Below, in pieces: positions 2,344 through 13,146 of a DNA stretch of 20,000 bases. Within the stretch, counting starts at the first letter, position 1, and the number at the start of each line of letters is the position of its first letter. A program made the translations under genes and the position numbers. Source of the DNA: an uncultured virus (IMG/VR IMGVR_UViG_3300043438_001944). Lineage: Duplodnaviria; Heunggongvirae; Uroviricota; Caudoviricetes. Where the stretch lies: the IMG/VR virus record IMGVR_UViG_3300043438_001944, positions 51,692 through 71,691 of that record; one strand, given 5' to 3'. A model generated the notes under the pieces. It did no database searches. It worked only from the letters and a program-made list of their open reading frames with translations, and was not told the origin of the DNA.

Positions 2344-2522
2344 AACAGGTGACGACGGTGGTGGAACCCCACTGTCTATAAATCTCAACACCCGCCTTGA
2401 TTCGCGGTATTATAGCGGTGAGAGTAGAGTTACTACAAGTCGGGAGTAATTAACCCAATGACGAAAGTGTAACCACCAATGAAAATTGGTTATGATGTAC
2501 GAAAGGGTACGAAAAACCTGTT
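2344..2522 (+). ncRNA. Putative structured ncRNA (~180 nt) directly after tRNA-Thr
   Basis: Ends pair (AACAGGT/ACCTGTT); internal stems GACGGTGG/CCACTGTC, CCGC/GCGG and ACCAAT-GAAA-ATTGGT; GC-richer than flanks. Confidence 0.55.
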
Positions 2523-2611
2523 AATTTTTTTGAGACTAATTCAATCGAGGACTTTGTCAACCAGAGCAGTGACTCGGATGGTGCAATTTAAGTTGGGTTA
2601 GAATCAATTTT

Positions 2612-5994: not shown

Positions 5995-6782
5995 TTAAAT
6001 CAAATAAAAAATACGATAATTTAATAACATTTGGTTGTTCTTTTACTGGTGGACATCTTTTGGGTGAAGAAGGTTCATGGGGTTTTGCACTTTCCAAACT
6101 ATTAAATTGTAATCATGTTAATAAAAGTGGGGGTGGGTCAAACACAAATATGGTTTCTAATATCATAAATTATTGTGAAAATAACGACATGACCGATTCT
6201 TGTATTGGTATTCAATGGAGTGAAGTTACAAGAAGAGAATATTGGGACGATAATAACAATAGATTCAACACATTAGGTTTAGGAACTTTTGATCCCCAAC
6301 ATAAAATCCTTGAACGAGATAATAGTCATTACGATTCATTAAGTTTTATAAAAAATAATTATTCTTTTTTTGGACCGATGTGGTTTAATCTTTCTGAAAA
6401 TTTACTAAGGACTATAATCGCTATGATTAGTATAAAGTCATATTTAAAAAATAAGAATATTGATTTTATAATGTTTGAAGGAATAAACTCAATTAAAACA
6501 ATAAATAAATCGTTTTACCCTGAGAATTATAAAACAGATATTAATCACTATGGGTCATCACAAGGAAACGATTTTAGTTTATTGAGGGATGAGATAAGAA
6601 TATCACTATTAAATGATGACACATTTTATAGTGAATTGGGTGATTGGATGAATGCAATGTATGAACATCCCAACTTTGATACAAAATTAAATGATGGACA
6701 TCCACATCAAGAAATAGTTGATTGGTGGGTTGGTAACATATATCAACACATTAAAAATGTTGAGGATAAAAATAATTTTTAA
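5991..6782 (+). CDS. SGNH-like protein, 263 aa
   Basis: TFGCSFT block I variant, NKSGGGSN block II, C-terminal DGHP; ATGA overlap. Confidence 0.65.
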   Translation: MIKSNKKYDNLITFGCSFTGGHLLGEEGSWGFALSKLLNCNHVNKSGGGSNTNMVSNIINYCENNDMTDSCIGIQWSEVTRREYWDDNNNRFNTLGLGTFDPQHKILERDNSHYDSLSFIKNNYSFFGPMWFNLSENLLRTIIAMISIKSYLKNKNIDFIMFEGINSIKTINKSFYPENYKTDINHYGSSQGNDFSLLRDEIRISLLNDDTFYSELGDWMNAMYEHPNFDTKLNDGHPHQEIVDWWVGNIYQHIKNVEDKNNF

Positions 6783-6810
6783 CATTTTAGGTTTTTAATT
6801 TTTTTATTCT

Positions 6811-6834
6811 TATATTAGTATAGGTTCTTTGAAA
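6811..6834 (+). promoter_or_regulatory. -7-like element plus boxA-like element upstream of tRNA-Leu
   Basis: TATATTAG (6811-6818) then GGTTCTTTGAAA (6823-6834). Confidence 0.55.
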
Positions 6835-6849
6835 TTTTAAAAAAAATAT

Positions 6850-6934
6850 GCCTGGGTGATGAAATGGTATACATGACAGACTTAAAATCTGTTGAGCAGA
6901 AACGCTCGTGCGGGTTCAAGTCCCGCTCCAGGTA
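6850..6934 (+). tRNA. trnL: tRNA-Leu(TAA)
   Basis: Acceptor GCCTGGG/TCCAGGT; anticodon arm ACAGA-CTTAAAA-TCTGT; long variable arm; T arm GCGGG-TTCAAGT-CCCGC; A73. Confidence 0.95.
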
Positions 6935-6973
6935 CAACACTATCGTTCTTTGGAAATAAAGGAGAAAATTAAT

Positions 6974-7222
6974 ATGGATATATTATCATTTATTTTAGGA
7001 ATGTCTATAGTTGTGGTTATCGCAGTTGCGGTAGTTGCGGTTATAGCCTTTGTTAAAGTTAATAAAACTAACAAAGAAATTAGAGAAGTAGAACAATGTC
7101 TCGGAAGAGAGATTGAAAATCAAAACAGAGAACGTGAAAATGCAATGAACGATGTTTATCGTGTATTGGATTCACGTTTAGATAAACTTGAGAGTAAAAT
7201 AACAATAAGCCGTAAGGCATAA
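6974..7222 (+). CDS. Single-pass membrane coiled-coil protein, 82 aa, embedded between tRNAs
   Basis: Start revised to ATG 6974 (the track start at 6908 lies inside tRNA-Leu); AAAGGAG upstream; N-terminal transmembrane helix then coiled coil. Confidence 0.8.
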   Translation: MDILSFILGMSIVVVIAVAVVAVIAFVKVNKTNKEIREVEQCLGREIENQNRERENAMNDVYRVLDSRLDKLESKITISRKA

Positions 7223-7262
7223 CGATTAAATAAAAACTTTCAAAGACGATAGTGTTAATTTT

Positions 7263-7336
7263 GGTTTCGTAGCTCAGTTGGATAGAGCAACATCCTTCTA
7301 AGATGTGGGTCTTTGGTTCGAATCCAAACGGGATCA
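7263..7336 (+). tRNA. trnR: tRNA-Arg(TCT)
   Basis: Acceptor GGTTTCG/CGGGATC; anticodon arm ACATC-CTTCTAA-GATGT; T arm TTTGG-TTCGAAT-CCAAA. Confidence 0.95.
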
Positions 7337-7388
7337 CGTTATCGTTGAAATACACGATAAATGATTTTATCGTTTCAATAAACGATAT

Positions 7389-7462
7389 GGACTTGTAGCT
7401 CATTAGGTTAGAGCGGCACACTCATAATGTGAAGGTAATAGGTTCGATTCCTATCTGGTCCA
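7389..7462 (+). tRNA. tRNA with CAT anticodon, probably Ile2 (lysidine-modified), alternatively Met
   Basis: Acceptor GGACTTG/CTGGTCC with C4-G69 and A73 (Ile-like); loop CTCATAA; T arm ATAGG-TTCGATT-CCTAT. Confidence 0.85.
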
Positions 7463-7658
7463 CTATTTAAAGTATGGGACTCCGATGGAAGTCCACAAGA
7501 AGAGCAGAAGTTTTTCATCCATCATTTATTATCATGGAGACCGCTAAATCGAGTTAGTGAAAATCTACATTCTCCGTGATAATTTCATTCAAAACATCTA
7601 CCGGTGGTTCCACACTAAGGTTATGTGAGGTTTCGGCTGATAAAAGGATGTTATATAT

Positions 7659-7806
7659 TGTAGTGTGACGAAACTGGCAAACGTGCCCTCCTGTCTCGGG
7701 GGCGGTGAAAAAGAAATAGGTAAGTAATATGGGGTAGACCACCAGCCGGCCGGCAAAGTGTTACTTACTGAATCTCATCTTGGTGGTTCGAGTCCATCCG
7801 CTACAG
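7659..7806 (+). tRNA. tRNA-Asp(GTC)-like RNA with a 79-nt structured variable-arm insertion
   Basis: Acceptor TGTAGTG/CGCTACA plus G73; D arm ACG-AAACTGGCAAA-CGT; anticodon arm CCCTC-CTGTCTC-GGGGG; T arm GGTGG-TTCGAGT-CCATC; insert 7703-7781. Confidence 0.75.
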
Positions 7807-7822
7807 CTAATTGTAAATTAAT

Positions 7823-8209
7823 ATGGAAAAACCTGTAATAGTAAACGTACATGAATGTCCCGAATGTAAAATCCCAAAAGGATGGGGAGAAGAAATAATA
7901 ATTTGTAATCACGAATTATATTGTGGTAAATTATTATGTTTTAAACAAGGTGCAAAATTTTCTATGCACTATCACATGATTAAAGATGAAACGTGGTATG
8001 TTAATGAAGGTGAATTCATTTATAGATGGATTGATACAGAAACCGCAGAAGTAATTGAACAAAAATTAAATGTTGGTGACACGGTGAGACAAATGCCAGG
8101 ACAACCACATCAATTGGAGGCACTTACTGATGGAGTTGTTTTTGAAGTATCAACACAACACTTTGATTCTGATTCATATAGAGTATGGAAGGGGGACTCT
8201 CAAAAATGA
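7823..8209 (+). CDS. Cupin-domain protein (sugar isomerase/mannose-6-phosphate isomerase-like), 128 aa
   Basis: PKGWGEE, FSMHYHMIKDETWYV, PGQPHQL and FEVST cupin motifs. Confidence 0.85.
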   Translation: MEKPVIVNVHECPECKIPKGWGEEIIICNHELYCGKLLCFKQGAKFSMHYHMIKDETWYVNEGEFIYRWIDTETAEVIEQKLNVGDTVRQMPGQPHQLEALTDGVVFEVSTQHFDSDSYRVWKGDSQK

Positions 8210-8592
8210 AAATTTGGGTAAACGGAACATTCGATGTGATGCACATTGGACATATTAAATTACTTGAACATGCAAGTAGTTTAGGTATTGTTAGAGTTGG
8301 TTTAGATACTGACGAAAGAATAAAAGAAAAAAAAGGTTTGAAGAGACCTATTAACACATTACAAGATAGAATTGATTTTATGAAATCAATTAAGTATGTT
8401 GATAGTGTAGTTAGTTTTAGTTCAAATGAAGAACTGGAAAATAGAATAGAAGAATGGGATGCCGATATTATGGTTATTGGTGATGATTATAAATATCACG
8501 AAATAATTGGTAGTCATTTAGTTGATAGAGTTTCATTCTTTGATAAAATAAAAAATAAATCGACAACAAAAATTTTAAGTTCATTTTTATAA
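8206..8592 (+). CDS. Cytidylyltransferase-family nucleotidyltransferase (RfaE domain II/TagD-like), 128 aa
   Basis: NGTFDVMHIGH (HIGH motif), GLDTD, RPIN, GDDY, C-terminal STTKI; start revised to ATG 8206 (ATGA overlap). Confidence 0.9.
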   Translation: MKIWVNGTFDVMHIGHIKLLEHASSLGIVRVGLDTDERIKEKKGLKRPINTLQDRIDFMKSIKYVDSVVSFSSNEELENRIEEWDADIMVIGDDYKYHEIIGSHLVDRVSFFDKIKNKSTTKILSSFL

Positions 8593-8653
8593 TATAATTT
8601 TATTATTTGGATTTTTTTTATTATATTTTATTATAAATAAAAACATAGATAAT

Positions 8654-8881
8654 ATGAAATGTATTAAATTAATTAAAACAAGTAAGGGTCACGAAATTGG
8701 TCAGATTTTAAGGACCGACGATAACGAAGCGGAATTTAGAGTAAAAGGTGGTAATTGGGCGTTTGCCCCTAAATCAGAATGGAGAGCAACTAAAAGGGGA
8801 AAGAAAGAAGAGGTTGAGATAAGTCATGATATGGGTGGATCCATTGAAGTTAGAAAAGAAAAGAAAAAAAATAAAAAATAA
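8654..8881 (+). CDS. Hypothetical protein, 75 aa, Lys-rich C-terminus
   Basis: ORF track; A-rich start context. Confidence 0.75.
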   Translation: MKCIKLIKTSKGHEIGQILRTDDNEAEFRVKGGNWAFAPKSEWRATKRGKKEEVEISHDMGGSIEVRKEKKKNKK

Positions 8882-8892
8882 TTCATTAATGT

Positions 8893-8951
8893 TTTGTTTT
8901 TATAAAAATTTTCCTTACCTTTGTAAAAGAAACAAGAAATAGTTCTTTGAA
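8893..8951 (+). promoter_or_regulatory. Bacteroidota sigma-A promoter plus boxA-like element for the large ncRNA
   Basis: TTTG (8893-8896), 19 nt, TACCTTTG (8916-8923); AGTTCTTTGAA at 8941-8951. Confidence 0.75.
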
Positions 8952-8959
8952 TTAAAAAT

Positions 8960-9762
8960 ATTGGCCGCCTATGGTCAACAAAATAAACCATGAAAGTGGG
9001 ATAAAGTGATTTCATTTGGTTGAATGAGATTGCGGTTTTAGAAATAGAACTCGAGTAGGCAAGCAAGATATCATTGAACCTTAAGTACTGAGGGTAACAC
9101 TGTAGGGAAAGTGGTTTAGTGACCAAGCGATGCAGGTCGTTTGGTTGAGTTCGGAAGAACAATAAGAATAACTTGTAGAATTATTACAAGAAGTAGGACC
9201 TCCAATCTTACAATTGTGTGATTCAATATAATGGGAATTTTAAAACCGAAAGGTATGGTAGTGTACAAGTGGTGTTGTTACTATCCTTAATTAGACCCTA
9301 CCAAGGGTTTAGTTTTGAAGAGGTCCAAAAATATGGAGGCAGGGATGTCTCAGAGAGTAGTTTAGTATCGAGTCGCTCAAAAGGTGGCTTGGCTGGTCGA
9401 CGAACCACTACTTTCCTAATCTGCAAACCAAAAACTTTGTTAATTCAGGTTTAACAACTCATAATTAAAAAGAAAAAGTGTTCGTCAGTCATTGGAGACA
9501 GGTGGCTACTTAGTCGTGAGGGGTTCACGGCCATAAAGGGACTCAATCCCAATATGATTTTTAAGAAAGTTCTCTAAACCCATAAGGTTTAATTGGGATG
9601 GCAATCTCGAAGAGTAATAAGTATTAAAAGAGTATCTGATGACTTAAGGATTGGTTAATCTAATTGACCGCCGCTGAGGATTACTACTCAAAAGGTAGTG
9701 GAAAAGAATGGGAAACAATAATCCGTTCAAAAGATTCTCGTTAAGACATGTATTCTCAGTGT
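8960..9762 (+). ncRNA. Large structured ncRNA (~800 nt), GOLLD-like
   Basis: ORF-poor GC-richer stretch between a promoter and a terminator; many G.U-containing hairpins on + strand; long-range pairings 9103-9116/9403-9418 and 9673-9680/9753-9760; size and tRNA-rich phage context fit GOLLD; family not verified by a covariance model. Confidence 0.7.
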
Positions 9763-9835
9763 TTTTTTTTCTTTGTTTACTAAAACAAAGTGGTGGAATT
9801 GGAACGTTTTAAAACCGTTCGGCCCTAAGAAAACC

Positions 9836-9863
9836 AGTCAGAAGAAATTCTGACTTTTTTTTT
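9836..9863 (+). terminator. Intrinsic terminator
   Basis: AGTCAGAA-GAAA-TTCTGACT followed by a T run. Confidence 0.85.
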
Positions 9864-9895
9864 GCTTTTTAAATAATATTTCGTATATTTCAATT

Positions 9896-10648
9896 ATGAG
9901 AATAATCTGCATATCAGATACACATAGCTTACAACATAACATGTTGCATGAAATACCTAAGGGTGATGTGTTAATTCATGCTGGTGATATCTCAAATAAG
10001 GGTGGTGAAAGAGATGTTACTGAATTCATTCATTGGTTTCAAAATATAGAGGGTTTCGATACTAAAATATTCATTGCAGGTAACCACGATTTTTGTTTTG
10101 AGAGAGTTAACCAACCACACCATAAAGGTGATTACGATTGGTTACATAACCTAATGTCTTCTGAAAACCTATCTCAATCTGATGTGACTTATTTGGAAGA
10201 TAGTTTTTTAACAATTGAAAGTCCTGAGTTTTCTCGACCTATTAAATTTTATGGTAGTCCTTGGCAACCTAATTTTTATGATTGGGCATTTAACTTACCA
10301 AGACTGGGTGATGAAATGAAAGGTAAATGGGAGATGATACCTGACGATACGGACATATTAATTACACACGGACCCCCAAATGAAATTAGAGATTTCGTAA
10401 GTAATTGGAGACAAGGTGATATGAATGTTGGGTGTGAATTGTTAAGATATGAATTAGATAATAGAATTAAACCATTTTTACATGTGTTTGGACATATACA
10501 CGGAGCGTACGGTGCTGTTTACAATAAAGAAACTCTTTATGTTAACGCATCCACATGTACCGAACAGTATATCCCATCAAATAAACCAATCGTTGTTGAT
10601 TTAAATGAAGTTGACGGCAAAATAATTGCAACGTATGTCCAAGAATAA
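9896..10648 (+). CDS. Calcineurin-like metallophosphoesterase (MPPED/239FB-like), 250 aa
   Basis: ISDTH, HAGD, IAGNHD, ITHGPP and HVFGHIH motifs. Confidence 0.92.
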   Translation: MRIICISDTHSLQHNMLHEIPKGDVLIHAGDISNKGGERDVTEFIHWFQNIEGFDTKIFIAGNHDFCFERVNQPHHKGDYDWLHNLMSSENLSQSDVTYLEDSFLTIESPEFSRPIKFYGSPWQPNFYDWAFNLPRLGDEMKGKWEMIPDDTDILITHGPPNEIRDFVSNWRQGDMNVGCELLRYELDNRIKPFLHVFGHIHGAYGAVYNKETLYVNASTCTEQYIPSNKPIVVDLNEVDGKIIATYVQE

Positions 10649-11318
10649 TTTACCTGTAAGTGTTGTGATATCAACACGTAAAATTGATGATGCGTATTTG
10701 AAACATGTCGAAAAAATGTTTTCACATCCCAAAACACAAATACTCATTTATGAGAACGATGGTGTTGAGTCATTAACTCAAATTTATAATATAGGATTAA
10801 AAGATTCTGTAAATGATATTGTTGTTTTTATGCACGATGATCTTATTTTAGAAACTTCTAATATAACACCTAAAATAGTTAAACTATTTGAAAAACATTC
10901 AGAGTATGGAATTATAGGTGTTGCTGGAACTGATAAATTAACAAGTGGGGTTTGGTGGAATAATAGAGAAAATATGTTTGGTGTTGTTGGACATATACAC
11001 GAAGGTAAGAGACACGTTAATCATTATTCTAAGAGTGTTTTTAATGACGTTCTTAAAGATGTGGTAGTTGTAGATGGATTATTCATTATGGTCCATAAGA
11101 AACGAATTAAAAGGGAATTTAATGAGGAGTTTGGTGGATTCCATTTTTATGATATATCATTCTGTGTGGATAATATATTAGAAGGAGTTAAAATAGGTCT
11201 TACAACTAAAATTGGTTTAACACATAAATCAATAGGGATACCCAATAAACAATGGGAGAAAAATAAACTGTTTTTTGAGGCGATATATGAAAAATATCTC
11301 CCAATTACAGTCAACTGA
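10635..11318 (+). CDS. Glycosyltransferase family 2-like protein
   Basis: SLTQIYNIG, VFMHDD (DxD-like), GIIGVAG, VVVVDGLF and FHFYDISFC motifs; ATG 10635 preferred start. Confidence 0.85.
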   Translation: MSKNNLPVSVVISTRKIDDAYLKHVEKMFSHPKTQILIYENDGVESLTQIYNIGLKDSVNDIVVFMHDDLILETSNITPKIVKLFEKHSEYGIIGVAGTDKLTSGVWWNNRENMFGVVGHIHEGKRHVNHYSKSVFNDVLKDVVVVDGLFIMVHKKRIKREFNEEFGGFHFYDISFCVDNILEGVKIGLTTKIGLTHKSIGIPNKQWEKNKLFFEAIYEKYLPITVN

Positions 11319-11359
11319 TTTTAACATAATAACGGATATTTATATATAAAACTAAAAAC

Positions 11360-11554
11360 ATGAAGAAAATTTTTGAATTAATTAAAAAACTATTAGGTGG
11401 TGGCACTTCCCTTGAAAAAGCGGCACAATTACAAGAATTACAAGTTGAGGTTAAAAAAGAGGTTGAGGTTGTGAAAGAAGTGGTTGCTGAAGCTAAGGAG
11501 GTTGTTACTGCTGTTAAAAAGAAAGCTGGTAGAAAACCATCGGCAAAGAAATAA
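11360..11554 (+). CDS. Small hypothetical protein, 64 aa, V/E/K-rich with basic tail
   Basis: ORF track; GATATTTATA motif at 11335-11344 upstream. Confidence 0.75.
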   Translation: MKKIFELIKKLLGGGTSLEKAAQLQELQVEVKKEVEVVKEVVAEAKEVVTAVKKKAGRKPSAKK

Positions 11555-11580
11555 TATTTTCTTTATTTTTGTGATATTCT

Positions 11581-11640
11581 AGGGTTAAAATTTGTTTTTT
11601 AACCCTTTTTTCACTATCTTTGTATCATAGTTCTTTAAAA
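11581..11640 (+). promoter_or_regulatory. Terminator hairpin overlapping a sigma-A promoter and boxA-like element for tmRNA
   Basis: AGGGTTAAAA/TTTTAACCCT plus T run; TTTG (11591-11594), 20 nt, TATCTTTG (11615-11622); AGTTCTTTAAAA (11629-11640). Confidence 0.7.
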
Positions 11641-11643
11641 TAT

Positions 11644-12035
11644 GGGGGTGCCTGGCATTGATTTCAGGTATCGGGAATAAGTGGCACGTAGTCAGACTTC
11701 ATCTATGACTTAAATCTACGGTGGAAAATTTCAAACGGCAACGTTTACAAAAACATGGAAATTGCAGGTTTACTTGCAACTTCCAACGTAGCAGTAGCCT
11801 AAGGCGAAACTACAATCGGGTCGACTGGCATATAACCTAGGAACAGAAGCCTTCAAGGTGTAACACCACTTAGAGTGTTGGAGCAAATCTGACGGCTCTT
11901 GAAAATCCGGTTAGGAACAGTATTGATGGTTTCCTGTAATTAACCTTCTATTTGTCTGTTGAGAACCAATAGAATAAACGTGTAGTCATTTATTGTTGAA
12001 CAGGAAAGACACGGGTTCGAGTCCCGTCACCTCCA
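11644..12035 (+). ncRNA. ssrA: tmRNA (one-piece)
   Basis: 5' GGGGGTG pairs with 3' CACCTCC with G3.U70 and A73; GAC-ACGGG-TTCGAGT-CCCGT T arm; tag frame 11737-11802 (GNVYKNMEIAGLLATSNVAVA*); 392 nt. Confidence 0.93.
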
Positions 12036-12080
12036 CAAAGCTTCTTAGCCGTAGCTTTTTTGATTAGTAAAGTAAATAGG

Positions 12081-12110
12081 AAACCCTTCAGAAATGAGGG
12101 GTTTTTTATT
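12081..12110 (+). terminator. Intrinsic terminator after tmRNA
   Basis: AAACCCTTCA-GAAA-TGAGGGGTTT followed by a T-rich tail. Confidence 0.85.
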
Positions 12111-12124
12111 TGTGGAAAGTCCTA

Positions 12125-12226
12125 TAACGAACAAAAGGTCCGAAGACCCTTTGTCGAGATTAAGAACACCTCCTTTTCGTTTAAATTAATTATTGTTTAA
12201 TGGCGACCAAACCGATTAAACTCTTC
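12125..12226 (-). ncRNA. Putative small RNA carrying an extended Shine-Dalgarno sequence complementary to the 16S rRNA 3' end
   Basis: Minus strand: GATATTTATA motif, GTTTAAT/ATTAAAC hairpin, AAAGGAGGTGTTC, then GACAAAGGGTC-TTCG-GACCTTTTGTT hairpin; no start codon after the SD. Confidence 0.55.
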
Positions 12227-12234
12227 TATAAATA

Positions 12235-13146
12235 TCAGTCATTTTCCATTTCGAGGTTTCTTCTCAAAACTTTTTTGATAATATTTTCTTGTAATGTTTT
12301 TCTATTTAATACCTCCATAGTTGAGTCATCAACTATACCTGTGACTTTTAATGGGTTACCCATTTTATCTTTGTTTGAACTTTGAAAATCTTTAACTGAT
12401 GATAATGTTCTTTGACCAAAAATACCATCAGGAGTACCGTCCTTAGATATGTTCTTATAACCATTTTTAATTAATGAATTTTGTATTTTTGTAACCTCAT
12501 CTCCCTCAGACCCCAATTTAATATTGTTAGATGTTAAAGAAATGTCTTCATTTTCATTTGAGGTAGATTTTTTTACTACATCGTTTTCCCAATAACCAAG
12601 TTTAGAATCTAATCTTGCACCATTCTCTGTGTTAACAATAAATTGATTTGCACCATTACAATCCCAAGTACCGTTAATTTTTCTATTTGGATCATTTCTA
12701 CTTATGTAGATAAATGTTTTATCCATATTAAATTGTAATTGACCTCCACTTGATAGTTTGTAGATAATACCATTTGTACCATCTAATTTTTTTGTTATAC
12801 CTTTTAAAATTTGTGAATTATTTACACAAGAAAATGCCGAGTTAACTTGTGAATCGTCAACAGTATTTGTTGTGGAATCAGTATTTGTCGTTGTTGTGGT
12901 GTTGGTTGTTGTGGTTTGTGTCACTCCTTTACAATATTGATTATTTGGATATAAATCACAAACATATAACTTATAAAATTTATCAATCGAATCGGTATAC
13001 AATTCTAATTTAACCATTTGATTGAATAATTTAGTAATGGTACTTTCATCCTTAAACCACGAATCAACCCAATCGGGGTAAAGTTTATTAGTTATGATTC
13101 TCTCCTCAACTAAAAAAATATATAATTTAACTCTATTTTTTCTCAT
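12235..13146 (-). CDS. Peptidoglycan-binding domain protein (PG_binding_1-like), Thr-rich linker, 303 aa
   Basis: C-terminal IKLGSEGDEVTKIQNSL..PDGIFGQRTLSSVKDFQ..LKVTGIVDDSTMEVL. Confidence 0.82.
   Translation of the reverse strand: MRKNRVKLYIFLVEERIITNKLYPDWVDSWFKDESTITKLFNQMVKLELYTDSIDKFYKLYVCDLYPNNQYCKGVTQTTTTNTTTTTNTDSTTNTVDDSQVNSAFSCVNNSQILKGITKKLDGTNGIIYKLSSGGQLQFNMDKTFIYISRNDPNRKINGTWDCNGANQFIVNTENGARLDSKLGYWENDVVKKSTSNENEDISLTSNNIKLGSEGDEVTKIQNSLIKNGYKNISKDGTPDGIFGQRTLSSVKDFQSSNKDKMGNPLKVTGIVDDSTMEVLNRKTLQENIIKKVLRRNLEMEND

What the first reader, a model, noticed from the sequence alone, without database searches (positions are those of the whole stretch)
8893..9863. Stand-alone ~800-nt ornate ncRNA (GOLLD-like) with its own promoter, boxA and terminator
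Seen: no credible CDS over ~1 kb. Hairpins include GATTTCATTT/GAATGAGATT, GACCAAGCGA/TCGTTTGGTT and TTAGACCCT/AGGGTTTAG. A CTCAAAAG-capped hairpin occurs twice (~9370-9390 and ~9681-9701), and AGTA motifs recur. A long-range helix 9103-9116/9403-9418 closes a 5' domain, an A-rich linker (~9425-9477) follows, then a 3' domain closed by GCTGAGGA/TTCTCAGT. Established: GOLLD RNAs are ~800 nt, phage- and tRNA-associated, of unknown function. Inference: a GOLLD member or a new large RNA class expressed like an rRNA operon.
Basis: partly seen in the sequence, partly recalled or inferred. Interest (0 to 1): 0.7.

Follow-up and report, generated by a model that had tools for sequence, protein, structure and literature searches.

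The report
Lake phage GOLLD RNA, rRNA-style leader
This gene-free stretch encodes a GOLLD RNA, a known giant phage RNA that builds hollow RNA-only cages of unknown purpose, and here it is preceded by the promoter and keep-transcribing signal that its likely host bacteria put in front of their ribosomal RNA.

Summary
Window 8961-9762 (+) is a full-length GOLLD RNA: Rfam RF02032 scores 298.8 bits (cut-off 150) over the whole 3' model. By eye, the 5' half is collinear with env-38 GOLLD, solved as a 14-mer cage. In 81 non-redundant phage homologues, 93 of the 110 strongest covarying pairs are canonical, and residues of all ten env-38 inter-subunit bridges map here. The leader has a Bacteroidota -33/-7 promoter and a boxA-like motif, present in 81 of 81 homologues versus 24 of 1063 control windows and in 20 of 29 16S leaders of the inferred host phylum. 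Four of four lake metatranscriptomes laid have contigs over it and none over the next gene (contigs only). The contig is a large T4-like phage. Verdict: new member of a known family. The boxA leader is the one feature my searches did not find in print; this scan noted it before on other DNA.

The parts
8893..8896 (+). -33 element (TTTG) of a Bacteroidota-type promoter, 19 nt before the -7 element
   Evidence: sequence; consensus TTTG/TANNTTTG from PMC6847099 passages; a TTG about 17-26 nt before the -7 site in 65 of the 74 homologues that have one
8916..8923 (+). -7 element TACCTTTG; inferred start of transcription about 8928
   Evidence: TAnnTTTG in the 110 nt before boxA in 74 of 81 homologues versus 105 of 1173 control windows; the G at -5 places +1 near 8928 (inference)
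8942..8950 (+). boxA-like antitermination motif GTTCTTTGA, 19 nt before the RNA
   Evidence: 81 of 81 homologues within 130 nt upstream, 0 of 81 on the opposite strand, 0 of 80 downstream, 24 of 1063 other windows; same pattern in 20 of 29 16S leaders of the phylum of G001
8961..9415 (+). GOLLD 5' domain of env-38 type, with its last hairpin module (9353-9415, the start of the Rfam model); cage cap with bridges B1-B5 and the B6 donor
   Evidence: collinear with env-38 by eye; covariation; 5' end taken from the env-38 construct start and the covarying pair 8962:8977
9416..9471 (+). variable A/U-rich linker (disordered and inside the cage in env-38); no tRNA in it
   Evidence: conservation 0.64; tRNA inside GOLLD in 0 of 81 homologues; PMC12286853 main text
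9472..9762 (+). GOLLD conserved 3' domain; ring and equatorial bridges B6 receptor, B7-B10
   Evidence: Rfam RF02032 match 9353-9762, 298.8 bits; pair 9473:9543 (bridge B7) canonical in 80 of 80 with CG/GC/AU swaps
9582..9583 (+). self-complementary dinucleotide of loop L21a (symmetric kissing bridge B8): AU here, GC in env-38
   Evidence: loop carries GC in 70, CG in 8 (loop UCGAA, read by eye) and AU in 2, and is deleted in 1 of 81
9763..9835 (+). poorly conserved trailer that begins with a U-run
   Evidence: conservation falls to 0.25-0.37; one RNA contig reaches 9824
9836..9863 (+). intrinsic terminator-like hairpin with U-tract
   Evidence: 2 found, 1.4 expected, so not significant alone; terminator-like hairpin within 170 nt in 56 of 80 homologues, no control run

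Best explanation
A stand-alone GOLLD gene of a large T4-like freshwater phage that probably infects Bacteroidota. Step 1 (inferred from conserved signals): host RNA polymerase starts near 8928, boxA loads host NusB/S10 to form the rRNA-type antitermination complex, this shields the untranslated ~0.9-kb transcript from Rho, and transcription ends at 9836-9863. Step 2 (shown by covariation): the ~800-nt RNA folds into the two-domain GOLLD protomer. Step 3 (inferred from the env-38 structure and conserved bridge residues): protomers self-assemble into a hollow dihedral cage, most likely 14-mer-like. Step 4 (weakest, about 0.35 alone): the cage is an abundant, nuclease-resistant scaffold in the phage's translation-support kit (tRNAs, tmRNA) that holds or protects translation components while the host is taken over. 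The confidence below is for steps 1-3.
For: Rfam 298.8 bits, full model. 93 of the top 110 MI-APC pairs are canonical in at least 85% of 81 homologues, including non-nested pairs 8968:9059, 9401:9484, 9473:9543, 9505:9671, 9648:9660 and 9703:9753. Bridge residues of PMC12286853 Suppl. Table 2, mapped by eye and counted: B2 G-C 81/81; B3 receptor 162/162 cells; B4 core 81, 81 and 78 of 81; B5 G-C and U-A/G 81/81, with its G-A pair invariant; B6 and B10 donor loops CAAAA 81/81; B7 161/161; B8 palindromic in all 80 that have the loop. boxA 81/81 and promoter 74/81 against controls; same boxA in 20 of 29 16S leaders. Shine-Dalgarno-like words before 2 of 46 ORFs, as in Bacteroidetes (PMC6847099). 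RNA contigs over 8944-9824 and the tmRNA, none over 9879-11187, in the 4 runs laid. All 111 tRNAs in the homologue loci lie on GOLLD's strand.
Against: No experiment on this RNA. The RNA data are contigs from runs chosen for holding the stretch; they show neither strand, ends nor level, and include relatives at 90% or more identity. env-38 cages form from refolded RNA without Nus factors (PMC12286853 methods), so boxA is not needed for assembly. No leader-trailer helix. 9 of 29 16S leaders lack the pattern; 3 of these carry GTTCATTGA. Stoichiometry varies in the family: 10-, 12- and 14-mers (PMC12990946 passages). Bridge B4 has 3 canonical pairs here against 5 W-W pairs listed for env-38. Only 29 of 81 homologue loci have a tRNA within 1.5 kb and none has one inside, which weakens step 4. 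A Lactobacillus GOLLD was dispensable for phage production (as cited in PMC7567579). The host is inferred from motifs only; the best capsid match is a Microcystis phage at 32%.
Confidence: 0.8

Rival explanations
1. Same RNA and cage, but its job is to act as a multivalent decoy or sponge for host antiviral RNases or RNA-binding defence proteins.
For: RNA holders in 13 studies; exposed repeated loops on a stable cage; dispensability in a laboratory host fits a conditional counter-defence role (inference).
Against: No partner protein or conserved neighbouring gene was identified, and gene neighbours were not analysed across homologues; the conserved loops are mostly explained as bridges.
Confidence: 0.25
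2. The boxA-like motif is not a Nus loading site but a processing or stability signal, or a leftover of tRNA-operon leaders.
For: It also precedes tRNA-Leu (6824) and the tmRNA (11630) here; no binding data; two strict copies (12407, 13786) lie antisense inside ORFs.
Against: Its distance to the RNA's 5' end varies from 17 to 119 nt, unlike a fixed cleavage ruler. It is tied to GOLLD (81 of 81) far more than to the first tRNA/tmRNA of a cluster (10 of 47). It matches 16S leaders and resembles the NusB-binding E. coli and B. subtilis consensuses (PMC13753749 passages).
Confidence: 0.25
3. GOLLD is a ribozyme, or a pRNA-like part of virion assembly, and the cage is a resting or incidental state.
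For: Large complex bacterial RNAs are often catalytic (PMC5737381 passage); the RNA forms rings.
Against: The gene lies more than 30 kb from the head, portal and terminase-like genes and among tRNAs (gene roles for the capsid, by recall of T4-like order for the others). Dispensable in one phage. The passages read describe no catalytic activity.
Confidence: 0.12
4. A new RNA class or an intron that only resembles GOLLD.
For: The 5' 390 nt match no Rfam family above chance.
Against: The Rfam model covers only the 3' 416 positions, and the 5' half is collinear with env-38 by eye.
Confidence: 0.02

Closest known systems
GOLLD RNA env-38 (Rfam RF02032; PDB 9MEE; Kretsch et al. 2025, PMC12286853), D7 14-mer cage
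   Same: Length class (about 802 vs 833 nt), collinear 5' and 3' domains, variable linker, residues of bridges B1-B10, phage and tRNA context.
   Different: B8 dinucleotide AU instead of GC; shorter L11a arm; B4 with 3 canonical pairs; compensated receptor pairs at B1, B6 and B10 (by-eye mapping). Identity to env-38 was not computed. The paper's main text has no word on boxA, leader, Nus or terminator.
Streptococcus agalactiae GOLLD (700 nt, 12-mer; PMC12990946 passages) and Lactobacillus/Mycobacterium GOLLDs
   Same: Conserved 3' domain and the kissing-loop/A-minor bridge logic.
   Different: That form lacks P9, P11a-c and P21b, whereas this RNA has the L11a-c and L21b elements; mycobacterial copies hold an internal tRNA or pseudo-tRNA, here 0 of 81.
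rrn leader antitermination (boxA, NusB/S10) of E. coli and B. subtilis (PMC13753749 passages; PMC10250234 abstract)
   Same: boxA-like motif shortly after a strong housekeeping promoter and ahead of a long untranslated structured RNA; identical core to 20 of 29 16S leaders sampled.
   Different: No leader-trailer helix; in this copy only about 14 nt between the inferred start and boxA, with no evident boxB-like hairpin; Nus binding untested.
ROOL RNA (Rfam family; octameric or hexameric cages)
   Same: Phage- and tRNA-associated cage-forming RNA of unknown function.
   Different: Unrelated sequence and fold; no ROOL match in the window.

Membership tests
GOLLD RNA | 3' domain scores above the Rfam RF02032 gathering cut-off | tested here: met
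   298.8 bits vs 150, model 1-416 of 416; 5 of 6 further loci scanned also pass, and the sixth (L123) is cut by its contig end
GOLLD RNA | About 800 nt, two domains joined by a variable linker | tested here: met
   137 full-length copies span 773-843 nt as cut; linker least conserved
GOLLD RNA | 5' domain of the env-38 type | tested here: met
   collinear by eye with Suppl. Table 4; covarying helices throughout 8962-9415; no computed alignment to env-38
GOLLD RNA | Covarying ornate structure with pseudoknots | tested here: met
   93 of 110 top pairs canonical; 8967-71/9056-60 paired in 405 of 405 cells
GOLLD RNA | Residues of inter-subunit bridges B1-B10 | tested here: met
   the B1 donor loop is invariant by construction, since it lies in the search pattern; B4 has a 3-pair core
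GOLLD RNA | Phage or prophage gene, often near tRNAs | tested here: met
   virus record, T4-like capsid protein; tRNA-Met ends 1.5 kb upstream and tmRNA starts 1.9 kb downstream; 29 of 81 homologues have a tRNA within 1.5 kb
GOLLD RNA | Abundant discrete transcript | tested here: inconclusive
   19 RNA runs of 20 rows, 13 studies; contigs bounded at about 8944-9824 in 4 runs laid; contigs give no ends, strand or level
GOLLD RNA | Self-assembly into a dihedral nanocage | not testable with these tools
   needs mass photometry or cryo-EM
rrn-type antitermination leader | boxA motif downstream of the promoter, on the transcribed strand | tested here: met
   81 of 81 vs 0 of 81 opposite strand and 24 of 1063 controls; 20 of 29 16S leaders
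rrn-type antitermination leader | Leader-trailer processing helix | tested here: not met
   mean z +0.29; 2 of 80 below -2, testing 60 nt on each side
rrn-type antitermination leader | NusB/S10 binding and Rho resistance | not testable with these tools
   bench test needed
ROOL, OLE, RNase P, group I/II introns | Match to the family covariance model | tested here: not met
   no match at gathering score in the window; none at E up to 5 in 8880-9400

The most novel reading that the evidence does not exclude
GOLLD of these lake phages is a dedicated client of the host's ribosomal-RNA antitermination complex. The phage keeps a host-type rrn boxA in front of every copy so that the cage RNA is made at rRNA-like processivity, and perhaps to draw NusB/S10 away from host rrn operons. 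That would tie an orphan RNA cage to ribosome-biogenesis machinery and give a genetic handle (boxA, nusB, rho) on GOLLD levels in vivo.
Probability: 0.6. Interest if true: 0.55.

Novelty: new member of a known kind. Interest (0 to 1): 0.3.

Why it matters
The RNA is a textbook GOLLD, so its discovery value is low. What it adds: (1) natural variation that supports the cryo-EM bridges, including a third palindrome (AU) at the symmetric kissing loop B8 and three-way swaps at B7; (2) a boxA leader kept in 81 of 81 homologues at variable spacing, which I did not find in the papers searched and which makes GOLLD's transcription testable; (3) GOLLD of this type is common in lake phage contigs, including 635-642 kb megaphage records, and is in the RNA of lakes, while the same 5' motif occurs in only 1 contig of 185,579 prokaryote genomes. 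GOLLD's function stays open.

Tried and rejected
I first took the 9107-9120/9353-9366 direct repeat as a possible conformational switch; the rival helix shows no covariation, so I dropped it. Sigma-70 promoter: chance level. Leader-trailer helix: not found. tRNA inside the linker: 0 of 81. Overlapping ORFs: no Pfam match. The search for 16S in G001 found none. A rigid boxA-to-16S pattern was badly spaced and matched 1 of 61 genomes; it was replaced by fetching leaders (30 loci from 90 of 151 genomes with a match, 1 dropped as too short). A regex count of loop L21a caught the wrong region and was discarded; the alignment count is used. My B5 mapping 9271:9303 shows 0 canonical pairs because the paper lists it as a G-A pair. 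Lack of RNA contigs over the flanking genes does not prove that they are silent. Not held, so not read: PMC7549688 and PMC6042979. Weinberg 2009 and the other 2025 structure papers were not read, so any of these may mention boxA. No alignment to env-38 was computed. The paper's alignment files (supplement 4) were not opened.

Full report
Identity. cmscan of the window against Rfam 15 gives GOLLD (RF02032) at 9353-9762 (+): 298.8 bits against a cut-off of 150, E 5e-85, model positions 1-416 of 416. The other 12 matches are 11 tRNAs and a tmRNA. The model covers only the 3' part; 8880-9400 has no other match above chance. I read the env-38 GOLLD sequence in Suppl. Table 4 of PMC12286853 and compared it by eye: it starts with the same motif as window 8962 onward and runs collinear to 9762. 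The RNA is therefore about 8961-9762, 802 nt. Of that paper I read parts 1-3 of 9 of the main text, two sets of passages, supplement 1 (part 2 and a search) and parts 1 and 5 of supplement 3.

Context. The window ends a 71,691-nt virus record. Its 584-aa capsid protein matches T4-like major capsid proteins; the best rows are a Microcystis phage (32%), Rhodothermus phage RM378 (29%) and Flavobacterium phages (38% over two thirds). ARAGORN finds 11 tRNAs and a tmRNA, all in the window on the + strand. The neighbours are cupin, cytidylyltransferase, metallophosphoesterase and glycosyltransferase genes. Among annotated phages, 2 records match by blastn, of 642 and 635 kb; both hold GOLLD. In 185,579 prokaryote genomes the 5' motif occurs once, on a 2-kb contig of a Bacteroidetes MAG.

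Homologues. Two exact-pattern scans of viral contigs each stopped at the limit of 120 loci, with flanks for 80. Of 242 loci with the anchor, 137 were full length, and 81 remained below 93% identity, the window included (alignment A1). The effective number at 85% identity is 39. The set is chosen by a motif around loop L3, so invariance there is by construction, and the sequences are related. In an earlier set of 41, conservation is 0.64-0.93 over 8950-9774 and drops to 0.44-0.45 just upstream and 0.25-0.37 just downstream.

Structure. Of the 110 strongest MI-APC pairs, 93 are canonical in at least 85% of sequences; they span both domains and include non-nested pairs. The four helices that they would displace pair in 95%, score 0.568 against 0.207, and no shuffle of 500 reaches that. 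The named local hairpins hold. The two CAAAA loops correspond to L14 and L24, the A-minor donors of bridges B6 and B10.

Cage contacts. I mapped the ten bridges of Suppl. Table 2 by eye and counted them. B7 (9472:9544, 9473:9543) is canonical in 161 of 161 cells, the second pair swapping among CG, GC and AU. The B8 loop carries GC in 70, CG in 8 and AU in 2 (this window and L015), and is deleted in 1; all 80 are self-complementary. The paper reported GC and CG only. The B1, B3 and B10 receptor pairs are canonical in every cell, and B6 in 152 of 162. B4 keeps a 3-pair core, while its flanking pairs are canonical in only 21 of 76 and 13 of 81. Cage formation is thus strongly predicted but not shown, and the stoichiometry could differ (10-, 12- and 14-mers are known; PMC12990946 passages).

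Expression signals. TTTG (8893-96), 19 nt, TACCTTTG (8916-23) fits the Bacteroidetes -33/-7 consensus (PMC6847099 passages), placing +1 near 8928. The -7 word lies within 110 nt before boxA in 74 of 81 homologues, against 105 of 1173 control windows. Only 2 of 46 long ORFs of the contig have a Shine-Dalgarno-like word, and 22 have A at -3. The boxA-like motif is within 130 nt upstream in 81 of 81 (strict form 80), at 17-119 nt from the RNA; it is on the opposite strand in 0 of 81, downstream in 0 of 80, and in 24 of 1063 other windows. The same pattern is within 450 nt before 16S in 20 of 29 leaders from genomes in the phylum of G001, taken to be Bacteroidota from the record title of L123; 3 of the 9 others carry GTTCATTGA. 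In this window it also precedes tRNA-Leu and the tmRNA, but across homologue loci only 10 of 47 first tRNA/tmRNA genes have it. No leader-trailer helix was found. A terminator-like hairpin follows at 9836-9863 and in 56 of 80 homologues (no control).

Transcription. Twenty runs were listed, 19 on record as RNA, from 13 studies of freshwater, lake and estuary samples. I laid 4 of them, from 4 studies, on 6700-12300. All four have contigs over 8944-9691, several with no differences from the window over 120-347 nt; one reaches 9824. None covers 9879-11187. Three cover the tmRNA. These are contigs from runs chosen for holding the stretch, so they show presence in RNA libraries, not ends, strand or level.

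How it works. Shown: family membership and fold. Inferred: host polymerase plus boxA-loaded Nus complex protects a long untranslated transcript from Rho (mechanism from PMC13753749 passages and the PMC10250234 abstract), and the RNA assembles into an env-38-like cage. For the purpose of the cage I favour a stable scaffold in the phage's translation-support kit (about 0.35) over a decoy for host defence (0.25) or a catalytic or packaging role (0.12). The favoured reading rests on context and on the ribosome pull-down cited in PMC12286853. Against it, no homologue here has an internal tRNA, only 29 of 81 have one within 1.5 kb, and one GOLLD was dispensable for phage production (PMC7567579 passage).

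Novelty. New member of a known family. I did not find the boxA leader in print: searches were (listings), with term searches in PMC5737381 and PMC12286853. Weinberg 2009 was not read, and PMC6042979 and PMC7549688 are not held. Earlier notes of this scan describe GOLLD with boxA in other genomes; I saw them after my own tests and do not count them as support. Helix and loop names follow the two structure papers where the residue numbers fix them; other helices are given by coordinates.

Noticed in passing
window 7659-7807 (+): tRNA-like gene missed by ARAGORN and Rfam: 7-bp acceptor stem, anticodon loop CUGUCUC (GUC with U at 37), and a ~78-nt structured extra arm. An exact 27-nt pattern finds 17 viral loci; the arm is 78-89 nt where measured and varies in sequence. 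RNA contigs, partly from relatives, cover it in 2 of 4 runs. Not searched in the literature.
   Followed up: partly
window 11615-12038 (+): Phage tmRNA with its own TATCTTTG promoter word (11615) and boxA-like motif (11630). The Rfam alignment suggests a longer tag than ARAGORN's 8 residues, resuming near 11737. RNA contigs in 3 of 4 runs.
   Followed up: partly
window 6824-6832 and 6945-6953 (+): boxA-like motifs just before and just after tRNA-Leu.
   Followed up: partly
window 2346-2600, 2690-2880 and 7470-7650: Gene-poor stretches between tRNAs with no Rfam match at cut-off; the first two are richer in G+C than the genome and may be further structured RNAs.
   Followed up: no
L007, L010, L032, L041, L127, L137, L144, L191 (alignment A1, columns 700-730): A GOLLD sub-type with L21a loop UCGAA and a changed L21b loop; both stay self-complementary at the kissing position.
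   Followed up: partly
L133:1478-2250 (+): A GOLLD copy that lacks hairpin P21a altogether, so bridge B8 is dispensable in at least one natural copy.
   Followed up: no
L041 and L046: Near-identical 5' domains joined to different 3' domain types, which suggests recombination at the linker; seen by eye.
   Followed up: no
trailers of L006, L020, L022, L024, L025, L051, L056, L065: A short recurring CCGGTAAAA/CTGGTAAAA motif between the GOLLD 3' end and the terminator, absent in this window.
   Followed up: no
window 9005-9008 with 9672-9675: A possible long-range 5'-3' domain pairing, canonical in 311 of 324 cells but with no two-sided change; not checked against the env-38 model.
   Followed up: partly
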